The notes under the pieces: generated by a model
What the model was told of the DNA's origin: nothing
Database searches by the model: none
The model's input: the letters and a program-made list of their open reading frames with translations, nothing else
Part shown: positions 29,862 to 34,495 of the stretch, one piece after another
Layout: the number at the start of each line of letters is the position of its first letter
Position numbering within the stretch: the stretch's first letter is position 1
Made by a program: the position numbers and the translations under genes
Assembly (NCBI RefSeq): GCF_009914755.1
Contig: NC_060947.1
Length of the DNA: 64,000 nucleotides
From: the human T2T-CHM13v2.0 reference genome, Homo sapiens
Strand: one strand, 5' to 3'

Positions 29862-32800
29862 ATCAGTCACATTTGGGCCTCGGTTAACTTGTTCAGCATC
29901 ACTGGTTTCACATCAGATCTGAAGCTCTGTCAATCATTCCACTATCAATTCCACTCTGGTCTTGCCTCAAATCGAGGCTTCGATTAACTGTTCCCTGCCC
30001 TTTGTCTGACTTTGAACCTGTGTGTTTGTCAACTACTTTACCATCAAGAGCCTCTCTGGGCCAGGTGCAGTGGCTCACACCTGTAATCCCAGCACTTTAG
30101 GAGGCCAAGGCAGGCGGATCACGAGGTCAGGAGATCGAGACCATCCTGGCTAACACGGTGAAACCCTGTCTCTACTAAAAATACAAAAAAATTAGCCGGG
30201 CGTGGTGGCACGTGCCTGTAGTCCCAGCTACTCGGGAGGCTAAGGTAGGAGAATCACTTGAACCCGGGAGGCGGAGGTTGCAGTGAGCTGAGATCACGCC
30301 ACTGCACTCCAGCCTGGGTGACAGAGCGAGACTCCGTGTAAAAAAAAAAAAAAAAAAAAAATGGCTGGGCTCGATGGCTCACACCTGTAATCCCAGCACT
30401 TTGGGAGGCCAAGGTGGGCAGATCATGAGGTCAGGATATCAAGACCATCCTGTCCAACATGGTGAAACCCCATCTCTACTAAAAATGCAAAAATTAGCTG
30501 GGTGTGGTGGCGCGTGCCTGTAATCCCAGCTACTCGGGAGGCTGAGGCATGAGAATCACTTGAACCCAGCAGGCAGAGGTTGCAGTGAGCCGAGATCGCG
30601 CCACTGCACTCCAGCCTGGCGACAGAGCGAGACTAAAAAAAAAAAAAAAAAAAAAAAGCCTCTCTGGTCTCAGAACGAAGCTGGGCCTTTGTTAACTATT
30701 ACCCCACTGGTGTACCACTGGTCAAATCTCAAACCAGGGCTACTGTATAATATTTCACTAGCAATTGGCTTCTGATCTGACCTTGAACTGAACTTGGGTT
30801 TCTATTAACTACTGTATTTTGTGACGGTGCCCTTTTGCTCCATTCCAACCTCGAGGACCCTCAGTCCTGACGTTACATCTGGGCCTCTGTTAATTATGTC
30901 ACCACCAATGCCCTTATGGTGTCAATTCCAGTCTGCACTTCTGTATTAACGGTTGCACCACTGGCTGGGCAGGCACAGTGGCTCACGTCTGTAATCCCAA
31001 CACTTTGGGAGGCCAAGATGGGCAGATCACCTGAGGTCGGGAGTTCGAGACCAGCCTGACCAACATGGAGAAGCCCCATCTCTACTAAAAACACAAAATT
31101 AGCCAGGCATGGTGGTGCATGCCTGTAATCCTAGCTACTCGGGAGGCTGAGGCAGGAGAATTGCTTGAATCCGGGAGGCGTAGGTTGCAGTGAGCCAAGA
31201 TCACGCCATTGCACCCCAGCCCTGGGCAACAAGAGCGAAACTCCGTCTCAAAAAAAACCCCAAACGACAACATCACCACCAACAACAAAACAGTTGTACC
31301 ATTAATGCCCATGGAGTCTAAACTTAAGCCCAGGCCTCTGTTAACTAGTCTACTATCACTGACTCTTTGGTCTGATCTCAGACCTGGGCATCTCTCTCTT
31401 TTTTTTTTTTTTTTTTTGACACAGAGTCTCGCTCTGTCGCCCAGGCTGGAGTGCAGTGGTGCCATCTAGGCTCACTGCAAGCTCCGCCTCCTGGGTTCAT
31501 GCCATTCTCCTGCCTCAGCCTCCTGAGTAGCTGGGACTACAGGTGCCCACCACCACGCCTGGCTAATTTTTTTGTATTTTCTAGTAGAGACAGGGGGTCT
31601 CACCATGTTGACCAGGATGGTCTCGATCTCCTGACCTCATGATCCGCCTGCCTCGGCCTCCCAAAGTGCTGGGATTACAGGCGTGAGCCACTGTGCCCGG
31701 CCCTGGGCATCTCTTAATGTTTCTTTCACCAGTACCTATGACCTCAAACCCAGGCACTTTATTTATTTATTTATTTATTTATTAAGACAGAGTCTCACTC
31801 TGTTGCCCAGGCTGGAGTGCAGTGGCACGATCTTGGCTCACTGCAACCTCTTGCTCCTGGGTTCAAGTGATTCTCCTGCCTCAGCCTCCCGAGTAGCCAG
31901 GATTACAGGTGCCCGCCGCCAAGCCCGGCTAATTTTTGTATTTTTAGTAGAGATGGGGTTTCACCATGTTGGCCAGGCTGGTCTCAAACTCCTGACCTCA
32001 AGTGATCCTCCTGCCTCGGCCTCCTAAAGTGCTGGAATTACAGGCATGAGCCACCACGCCCGGCTGACCTTCATTTGATATTCTAGCTTAAAGGTCCTTC
32101 TGGTCTCGAATCAAACCTGGACCTCGGTTCAGTTTTCATCCAACAATGCCACATGGGTAATGCCTGGTCTTCTTTTTAACTATTCAACCTTCAGTCTCCT
32201 CTGATCTGACTTTGAATGTAGGCCATTTTAACTCACACCGTCAATTGGTCTGATCTCAAATCTGGTCTACTGTTAAGCATCAATGTTCTTCTGGTTTGTT
32301 CTCAAAATCTGGGTTCTCTTTTCTTTTCTTTTTTTTTTTTTTTCAGACGGAGTCTCGCTCTGTTGCCAGGGCTGGAGTGCAGTGGCATGATCTCGGCTCA
32401 CTGCAGCCTCCGCCTCCCAGGTTCAAGCAATTCTCCTGCCTCAGCCTCCCAAGTAGCTGGGACTACAGGCGCATGCCACCACGCCCGGCTAATTTTTGTA
32501 CTTTTAGTAGAGACAGGGTTTCACCATGTTGGCCAGGATGGTCTCAATCTCTTGACCTCGTGCTCTGCCCTCCTCGGCCTCCCAAAGTGCTGGGATTACA
32601 GGCGTGAGCCATCGCGCCTGGCCACTGGGTTCTCTTTTCTAGTCATTCCATATTCAATATCATCCTGGTCCCTAATCAGAGCTCTTCCACTATCCTTGCT
32701 CTCTAGTCTGTCTGATTCTTAACCAGGACTTACATTTCCTATTTCATATTTAAAGATCTACTAGTCTAGTTAGCCAACACAGCCATTTAACTATCCCCAA

Positions 32801-34495
32801 ATCCTTCCACTCCAAGCCTTCTCAAACCAGTCTTCTGTTAAATACACCACCAACTCCCATCTGGTTTGACCTTGAATCTGATCCTCTGATAACTGCTCCA
32901 TCGCCAGTGTCCTGTGGATCTGTCATTGAACTTGTACAGTTATCTCTTCCAACACCAGTGCCCCTAGAGTGTGAACTCAAACTCCAGGCTCTGTTAAGTA
33001 TTCTAGACTCGAGTCCACTCTGAACTGACCTCAAACCTAGATATTCATTTGATTGTCCTCATCCCTTTTTCTCTGGTTTGATCCTAAACCAAGGTCTGTG
33101 TTAACTATTACGCCTGGAATGTTCCTCTAGTCTGAGTTCAAGCATTTTCTAACTATCCCAATATCAAATCCCACCTCTTTGTCTATATATTTAACAGAAT
33201 AATTAAAGCAGAACTAATTAAAACTCCTTGCCCCTCTTACTTGACCTCAAATCTGGGTGTCTTTATTCTATCATCAGTGCTTTTCTTGTCTATTATTGAA
33301 CTCTGTGTATTAACTCTCCTAACATCAATGTCCGTGTCTGACTTTTAACGATGGTGTCTGTTCATTCTTCCACTATAAATTCCTCTCTGGTAGTGTTGCC
33401 TTCCACACAGGCCTCTGATAAAACTACCATTGTTAATGCCCCCTTAAACAAGGACTTTGGTTAGTGAGTTTACCATCAATACCTTCCCGTTTGATTTTTT
33501 TATTTTTATTGAGACAGAGTCTTGCTCTTGTCACCCAGGCTGGAGTGCAGTGGCACGATCTTGGTTCACTGCAACCTCTGCCTCCCAGGTTCAAGCGATT
33601 CTCCTGCCTCAGCCTTCTGAGTAGCTGGGATTACAGGTGCATGCCACCACGTGTGGCTTTTTTTTTTTTTTTTTTGAGATAGTCTCGCTGTGTTGCCCAG
33701 GCTGGAGTGCAGTGGCACGATCTCAGCTCACTGCAACCTCTGCTTCCTGGGTTCAAGTGATTCTCCTGCCTCCGCCTCCCGAGTAGCTGGTATTACAGGC
33801 ATGCGCCACCATGCCCAGCTAACTTTTGTATTTTCAGTAGAGACAGGGTTTCGCCATGTTGGCCAGGCTGATCTCGAACTCCTGACCTCAAGTGATCCGC
33901 CTGCCTCAGCCTCCCAAAGCGCTGGGATTACAGGGGTGTGCTATCACGCCCGGCTGATACCTTCCTGTTTTAAAGCACTGACCCTGGCATGTGTTAACTA
34001 GTCCATCACCCATGCCCTATTTTCTGACCTTGAACTTGGACCATTGTTTTGTTTTTGAGACAGAGTTTATTTATTTTTGTGTGTGTGTGACGGAGTCTTG
34101 CTCTGTCGCCCAGGCTGGAGTGCAGCGGCGTGATCTCAGGTCACTGCAACCTCCGCCTCTGAGGCTCAAGTGATTCTCCTGCCTCAGCCTCCCAAGTAGC
34201 TGGGACTACAGGTGAGCGCCACCAGGCCTAGCTACTTTTTTGTATTTTTAGTAGAGACAGGGTTTCACCATGTTGGCCAGGCTAGTCTGGTACTCCTGAC
34301 CTGAGGTGATCTGCCCGCCTCAGCCTCCCAAAGTGCTGGGATTACAGGCGTGAGCCACTGCACCCAACTGGACAATTGTTAAGTGTCTCTATATCCATGC
34401 CTCTTCGGTTACACTTTAAACCTGGGCTTATGGCAAATACTTCAGCATTAGTGGCCTTCAGATCTGAACTCAAATATAGAAGATTAAATTACTGG
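29862..34495. repeat. Ancient degenerate ~54-bp tandem array interrupted by ~9 Alus
   Basis: Recurring unit close to CTCTGGTCTGACCTCAAACCTGGGCCTCTGTTAACTATTCCACCATCAATGCCC. Landmark spacings at 32821-33137: 50, 54, 51, 54, 53, 54. Confidence 0.75.

What the first reader, a model, noticed from the sequence alone, without database searches (positions are those of the whole stretch)
29862..34495. Hidden ancient ~54-bp (18-codon) tandem array directly after the distal WDR13 poly(A) signals
Seen: with Alus removed, ~2 kb of spacer is roughly 35-40 diverged copies of about CTCTGGTCTGACCTCAAACCTGGGCCTCTGTTAACTATTCCACCATCAATGCCC. Alu flanking duplications inside it (gcctctctgg 30050/30658, tgggcatctct 31386/31704, ctgggttctctttt 32309/32625) show that it predates the Alus. 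The modal period is a multiple of 3. My by-eye consensus is open on both strands (+ LWSDLKPGPLLTIPPSMP; - RSDQRGIDGGIVNRGPGL), and ORF 30560-30775 shows the 18-aa beat ([36 protein letters not shown]). Inference: either a fossil repeat-coding exon of a lost gene, or an old non-coding array, possibly aiding termination or lncRNA structure. One open 18-codon frame is common by chance, so the coding idea is tentative.
Basis: partly seen in the sequence, partly recalled or inferred. Interest (0 to 1): 0.7.

Follow-up and report, generated by a model that had tools for sequence, protein, structure and literature searches.

The report
Fossil minisatellite families of Xp11.23
Behind the human WDR13 gene lies a worn-out run of 38 copies of a 54-base DNA repeat that shows no sign of coding for protein; it belongs to one of two such repeat families found only within 1.75 million bases of the X chromosome, which likely stopped copying themselves before placental mammals diversified, next to the point where an extra chromosome piece joined the X.

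Summary
It shows no coding signature: 7 of 64 indels are 3n; stops and synonymous changes match neutral simulation. It is not unique. The same unit forms arrays upstream of ZNF630 (~34 units) and ZNF157. A second, 32-bp family abuts it (34500-35053) and recurs near FTSJ1, WAS, GLOD5 and WDR45. All seven sites lie in chrX:46.77-48.51 Mb. Copies are as alike between arrays as within them. Chance ORFs from other genomes map collinearly and share copy-specific lesions, so the array likely froze before the eutherian radiation. The left flank, holding one distal WDR13 AATAAA and probably both, is a BED-finger, probably hAT, transposon fragment. Best reading: an ancient, regionally dispersed, neutrally decaying minisatellite family that behaves like MSR1 but is not MSR1. 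Bolder reading (~0.15): relics of satellite DNA beside the XAR/XCR fusion point, where the elephant centromere lies. Dfam and mammalian genome DNA could not be searched.

The parts
29420..29568 (.). End of a high-copy interspersed repeat (LTR-like; class recalled) that truncates the transposon fragment; not part of the array
   Evidence: 40 of 204 candidates scored and listed, most matching this stretch at 75-84%
29550..29839 (-). Fragment of an ancient BED-zinc-finger DNA transposon, probably hAT; BED ORF at 29643-29819
   Evidence: Pfam zf-BED E 0.013, below the gathering cut-off; 11 dispersed paralogs at 70-88%; profile of paralogs hits 29550-29839 at E 1e-41 to 1e-43 and nowhere else in the window; paralogs lack the array
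29829..29852 (+). Two AATAAA signals (29829-29834, 29847-29852) of the distal WDR13 3' end (RefSeq end 29871, inside array unit 1)
   Evidence: Sequence; the first lies inside the transposon profile hit; the second lies in the A-rich stretch that still aligns with paralogs
29862..34500 (+). 54-bp minisatellite array, 38 units, 69% to consensus, star-like, CpG-decayed (columns 15-16: CA 15, TG 8, CG 1 of 36)
30049..30667 (+). Tandem Alu pair with target-site duplication, inside the array
30948..31301 (+). Alu with target-site duplication
31383..31714 (-). Alu with target-site duplication
31755..32066 (-). Alu; no clear target-site duplication found
32309..32640 (-). Alu with target-site duplication
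32628..33187 (+). Part of the array matched collinearly by chance ORFs P0001-P0003 from other, presumably mammalian, genomes
33479..33970 (-). Nested or partial Alu block with target-site duplication
34037..34380 (-). Alu with target-site duplication
34500..34650 (-). Inverted, decayed units of the 32-bp family
   Evidence: Minus strand scores 33.2 vs shuffles -25.8+-4.8; HMM hit 34650-34626
34661..35053 (+). 32-bp minisatellite array, 13 units, 77% to consensus (a well-kept natural copy is 34848-34879)
   Evidence: Lag 32 z 5.6

Best explanation
The 54-bp array is one of three arrays of a non-coding minisatellite family that, with a second 32-bp family, was found only in chrX:46.77-48.51 Mb, and it likely grew by unequal exchange, was likely seeded to neighbouring sites by local duplication or conversion while still homogeneous, and has probably decayed neutrally since before the eutherian radiation. 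Shown: tandem structure, star-like divergence, CpG decay, equal identity within and between arrays, mixed orientations, later Alu/LTR insertions, no coding signature. Inferred: the spreading mechanism, the age, and the absence of a sequence-specific function today. The distal WDR13 poly(A) site is an incidental neighbour built on an A-rich transposon relic; array unit 1 may supply its downstream element (untested).
For: Array and consensus. Star shape: pairwise identity 0.540 vs 0.532 simulated, flat over distance. 54-bp paralogs: ZNF630 side, chrX 47,482,17x-47,486,82x, minus strand, ~34 units, HMM E to 2e-13, own consensus differing at 6 of 54 columns, between-array identity 0.518 vs within 0.539/0.518, no collinear diagonal; ZNF157 side, 46,765,33x-46,772,87x, plus strand, E to 1e-12. 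32-bp family: 16 of 18 genome-wide pattern hits at 5 Xp11.23 sites, control 4; the FTSJ1 (61 units) and GLOD5 (56 units) arrays give identical independent consensuses, between 0.58 vs within 0.56/0.60. Age: orthologous peptides are 58 of 85 and 35 of 57 identical, about 17-21% nucleotide change by simulation, against ~46% between units. Non-coding. No shared flanks between loci other than common repeats.
Against: Genome searches are insensitive: DNA mode found only the query and missed known paralogs. One search gave 70 hits outside Xp11.23 (control 20), of which 11 were checked; none was an array, but one on chr9 is a near-full single unit. Confinement is therefore shown for large arrays only. 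Several arrays sit 0.2-3.4 kb from CpG-island promoters or directly 3' of genes, which might reflect selection. There is a weak higher-order signal at lags 7 and 12 (P=0.01) with no clean duplicated block. The orthologous records are unnamed, so the date is loose. Stops in the + frame lean low (P=0.06).
Confidence: 0.68

Rival explanations
1. The arrays are relics of satellite DNA beside the centromere or chromosome end of the ancestral therian X. They froze when the centromere left the XAR/XCR fusion point.
For: Both families sit within 1.75 Mb on the conserved-region side of the RGN|RBM10 border; the nearest array is about 0.2 Mb from RBM10 (distance recalled). A review states that the border is at Xp11.23 and that the elephant centromere appears to lie there (PMC3820666, passage). 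Simultaneous freezing, CpG decay and mixed orientation fit.
Against: The arrays are small (0.1-2 kb) and lie among old genes and CpG islands. MSR1 clusters on 19q without such a history (PMC4725990, passages). PMC5615350 (passage) describes the Afrotherian position as a shift.
Confidence: 0.13
2. The arrays were kept as cis-acting modulators of promoters or of termination, as reported for MSR1.
For: Arrays lie upstream of the ZNF630, ZNF157 and WDR45-side CpG islands and just inside WAS, and start 0-0.9 kb after the ends of WDR13 and FTSJ1 (hub table). They persisted across mammals.
Against: Divergence looks neutral. No 54-bp array was found upstream of 3 other ZNF promoters checked. There is no common position or orientation. 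RNA folding shows no excess. The region is gene-dense. The hub lists no RefSeq functional element over the array.
Confidence: 0.1
3. The array is the internal tandem part of an unrecognised mobile element (hAT subterminal repeats, or a SINE- or SVA-like composite).
For: It abuts a BED-finger transposon fragment and occurs at several loci. By eye the minus strand resembles the tRNA-derived part of MIR (recalled).
Against: 0 of 11 transposon paralogs carry the unit, and the element does not resume after the array. Loci share no termini. The match to a profile of 29 MIR-core loci scores 12.3 vs null 10.4+-2.0 (weak 5' profile). Transposition would not stay within 1.75 Mb.
Confidence: 0.05
4. Fossil exon of a lost 18-residue-repeat protein gene.
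For: Period 54; the consensus is open on both strands; + frame stops lean low (P=0.06). Neutral decay after early loss would erase the signal.
Against. Three loci, two of them upstream of promoters. No intact repeat protein: 1 hit among 1.84 billion representatives, itself a frame-switching ortholog; none among 211 and 2,748 longer candidates (weak tests).
Confidence: 0.04

Closest known systems
MSR1 minisatellite (36-38 bp, densest on 19q; PMC4725990, passages read)
   Same: Short-unit arrays dispersed over many loci of one gene-dense region, often near promoters, conserved at some loci between mammals.
   Different: Units here are 54 and 32 bp, X-linked, at only 3 and 5 sites, 23-33% decayed, with no sign of recent amplification. 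The 24-nt core of the 32-bp unit had 0 of 18 hits on chr19. A resemblance of the 32-bp unit to MSR1 is recalled and untested; the paper's text and supplement give no sequence.
Tandem repeat domains of XIST/Rsx lncRNAs (seen in search listing only)
   Same: Adjacent blocks of different ancient repeats on the X.
   Different: No annotated transcript covers the array, there is no folding excess, Rfam gave only Alu-borne matches in 29000-39500, and the family is multi-locus.
hAT transposons with a BED finger (Arthur, Zaphod class; names listed in PMC5753468, passages)
   Same: The left flank is such a relic with dispersed copies.
   Different: The array is not part of it. The family name of the fragment was not determined.
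Newly annotated T2T satellites and arrays (bioRxiv 10.1101/2021.07.12.451456, passages)
   Same: Human tandem arrays left unannotated earlier.
   Different: Those shown are high-identity and young. The main text has 0 occurrences of 'Xp11' or 'chrX'; its supplements were closed.

Membership tests
Dispersed minisatellite family (general) | Head-to-tail units of 10-100 bp | tested here: met
   54-bp and 32-bp periods
Dispersed minisatellite family (general) | Same unit at several loci | tested here: met
   3 loci (54-bp), 5 loci (32-bp):
Dispersed minisatellite family (general) | Copy-number variation in people | not testable with these tools
   One genome only; unlikely at 54% pairwise identity (inference)
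MSR1 | 36-38 bp unit | tested here: not met
   54 and 32 bp
MSR1 | Highest density on 19q | tested here: not met
   0 of 18 hits of the 32-bp core on chr19; 54-bp arrays only on X
MSR1 | Sequence homology to the MSR1 consensus | not testable with these tools
   No MSR1 sequence obtained
Protein-coding tandem repeat (fossil exon) | Indels in multiples of 3 | tested here: not met
   7 of 64
Protein-coding tandem repeat (fossil exon) | Synonymous excess and stop depletion | tested here: not met
   Neutral in all 6 frames; + frame stops P=0.06
Protein-coding tandem repeat (fossil exon) | Intact ORF in another species | tested here: inconclusive
   Only frame-switching chance ORFs found; no mammalian genomes searchable
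hAT transposon internal repeat | Unit present in other copies of the element, within its termini | tested here: not met
   0 of 11 paralogs; no resumption after the array
MIR/tRNA-SINE-derived repeat | Significant similarity to the SINE | tested here: inconclusive
   12.3 vs null 10.4+-2.0 on a poor 5' profile
Known Dfam/Repbase repeat | Match to a curated consensus | not testable with these tools
Relic pericentromeric satellite | Related homogeneous satellite at a centromere of an outgroup | not testable with these tools
   Needs elephant, xenarthran and marsupial X assemblies

The most novel reading that the evidence does not exclude
The 54-bp and 32-bp arrays are the readable remains of the satellite field that flanked the centromere or chromosome end of the ancestral therian X at the XAR/XCR fusion point. 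They froze together when the centromere moved, so their reconstructable units are probes for a centromere more than 100 million years old.
Probability: 0.15. Interest if true: 0.8.

Novelty: new member of a known kind. Interest (0 to 1): 0.45.

Why it matters
It turns an apparent one-off array into two apparently undescribed repeat families. TRF misses the 54-bp array, and both families are regionally confined and froze before placental mammals radiated. Satellites normally turn over too fast to leave such old, reconstructable units. Because they sit beside the XAR/XCR junction, they give sequence probes for an open question: whether the eutherian X arose by a centric fusion there and whether the elephant centromere is ancestral. 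If ordinary, they remain neutral dating markers and unmasked repeats beside WAS, WDR45, FTSJ1 and ZNF630. No description was found in 5 searches aimed at it, but Dfam, subscription journals and closed supplements were not searchable.

Tried and rejected
TRF at 4 settings found no 54-bp array. Rfam 29000-39500: 66 matches, all SRP or miRNA families on Alus, none at gathering score. Pfam on 11 ORFs of the finding and flanks: only zf-BED and a weak C2H2 hit in the left flank. A lost KRAB-ZNF gene behind the array: no motif in the window, and 92 of the 113 listed ORFs scanned gave only V1R, one RT fragment and 3 weak hits. Arrays as part of a ZNF promoter unit: present at 2 of 5 ZNF promoters; at the other 3 there was one weak 32-bp-like unit (E 0.044) and one weak 54-bp hit (E 0.26). 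Common origin of the 54- and 32-bp units: P=0.33. MIR origin: not significant. Copy-by-copy collinearity of the WDR13 and ZNF630 arrays: best diagonal 0.558 vs 0.518 mean, none clear. RNA structure: none. Plasmid collection: no match. The bacterial promoter scan does not apply. Papers: PMC9004415 passages and supplement list only, with no mention of this locus seen; PMC3260438 had 0 occurrences of the terms. A profile search of the whole human genome was not available, so patterns were used.

Full report
Observation. The interval 29862-34500 holds seven Alu blocks, six with target-site duplications of 11-16 nt. Removing them leaves 1,934 nt whose autocorrelation peaks at lag 54 (z 6.4; largest z in 300 shuffles 4.5). 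Units are 69% identical to the consensus and 54% to each other, as in a star simulation (0.532). Columns 15-16 read CA 15, TG 8, CG 1 of 36, the pattern of a decayed methylated CpG. A weak excess at lags 7 and 12 (P=0.01) did not resolve into a duplicated block.

Coding test. Seven of 64 indels are 3n. Seventeen of 36 unit lengths are multiples of 3, about what 9 intact units plus chance give. Conservation by codon position is flat (P=0.33). Two or more open frames occur in 88% of shuffled units. A profile of 10 natural + frame peptides found 1 protein among 1.84 billion, and it led to two more. All three map collinearly to 32628-33187 (P0001: 55%, E 1e-46, next array segment 9e-5). By eye, P0001 and P0003 move in and out of the unit's frame, P0001 where human does. 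They are best read as gene-caller ORFs on the orthologous locus of other mammals (inferred; the records are unnamed). Searches for longer proteins found none in either frame (weak tests).

Age. In-frame blocks are 58 of 85 and 35 of 57 identical, about 17-21% nucleotide change by simulation, against about 46% between units. Copy-specific lesions are shared across species. Most decay therefore predates those splits, which likely places homogenisation before the eutherian radiation (inference; CpG decay and initial heterogeneity inflate the estimate).

Left flank. Bases 29550-29839 are a fragment of a dispersed element with a BED zinc finger on the minus strand (zf-BED E 0.013; 11 paralogs; profile hits E 1e-41 to 1e-43), probably a hAT transposon (class from established knowledge). 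The first distal WDR13 AATAAA lies inside it and the second in the stretch that still aligns. None of the 11 paralogs carries the 54-bp unit, and the element does not resume after the array.

Right flank. A second array with a 32-bp unit follows: inverted units at about 34500-34650 and 13 direct units at 34661-35053. The two units are not detectably related (P=0.33).

Both units are regional families. A 24-nt core of the 32-bp unit gave 18 genome-wide hits (control 4), 16 at five Xp11.23 sites: 0.9 kb behind FTSJ1 (61 units), this window, the WAS distal promoter, about 7 kb before GLOD5 (56 units), and the WDR45-side CpG island. Eight of those hits belong to the arrays the pattern came from; 8 of the other 10 are in the region; the 2 outside were not checked. 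The WAS and WDR45 sites are an 84-87% identical duplication. For the 54-bp unit, one pattern hit only this array. A second gave 10 hits (control 4), one of which revealed an Alu-broken array of about 34 units ending 0.2-0.5 kb before the ZNF630 CpG island; the 3 hits elsewhere were not checked. A third gave 81 hits (control 20): 11 in the region, including 3 at a new site upstream of ZNF157 (E to 1e-12), and 70 elsewhere. No two of the 70 lie within 90 kb of each other; many share one recurring sequence (probably L1, recalled); 11 were checked and none was an array. The names ZNF157, ZNF630, GLOD5, WDR45, ZNF41, ZNF81 and ZNF182 are recalled from gene order and N-termini; FTSJ1 and WAS come from the hub table. 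Independently fitted consensuses agree (32 of 32 for FTSJ1 vs GLOD5; 48 of 54 for WDR13 vs ZNF630). Identity between arrays equals that within them, without collinearity. Flanks share only common repeats.

Mechanism. Shown: homogeneous master units, several arrays of equal age in both orientations within 1.75 Mb, then point decay, random indels and insertions. Inferred: growth by unequal exchange or slippage, local seeding by duplication or ectopic conversion, loss of homogenisation, and neutrality since (0.68). A kept cis role is possible (0.10), but position and orientation vary, 3 of 5 ZNF promoters lack the array, and RNA folding is ordinary.

Comparison. It works like MSR1, a 36-38 bp minisatellite densest on 19q that modulates promoters (PMC4725990, passages), but fails membership on unit length and location. 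A review places the XAR/XCR border between RGN and RBM10 at Xp11.23 with the elephant centromere at that point (PMC3820666, passage); another paper calls that position a shift in Afrotheria (PMC5615350, passage). All seven sites lie about 0.2-2 Mb on the conserved side (distances recalled). This supports, but does not test, the relic-satellite reading (0.13-0.15).

Novelty. Five literature searches found no description (listings and abstract starts only). The T2T repeat preprint's main text does not mention Xp11; its supplements, and Dfam, could not be seen and may list these repeats. Verdict: observation confirmed, coding reading not supported, new member of a known kind, interest 0.45.

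Noticed in passing
L062:1787-4753 and L063:1251-3985 (chrX 48.512-48.515 Mb and 48.086-48.089 Mb): The CpG-island promoter at the distal start of WAS and the one on the WDR45 side are an 84-87% identical duplication 426 kb apart, each with a few 32-bp units beside the island.
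   Followed up: partly
L069:1459-1551 (chr9:127,604,36x-127,604,45x): A single near-full 54-bp-like unit, apparently inside an old LTR-like element (class recalled); borderline after genome-wide correction.
   Followed up: partly
L062:1078-1155: Short, near-perfect 31-bp tandem repeat (about 2.5 copies), unrelated to the 32-bp family by HMM.
   Followed up: no
L082:5996-6022: One weak 32-bp-like unit (E 0.044) about 100 bp before a ZNF promoter CpG island, probably ZNF81.
   Followed up: partly
window 28040-29568: An Alu-broken LTR-like element fills much of the long WDR13 3' UTR isoform; with the transposon relic, the distal UTR is largely mobile-element derived.
   Followed up: no
window 55050-55400 (+) and 57325-58155 (+): A reverse-transcriptase fragment (RVT_1 E 4e-4) and V1R matches in two frames of VN1R110P.
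   Followed up: no
window 62001-62500: Sliding autocorrelation shows a period of 49 (z 5.0).
   Followed up: no
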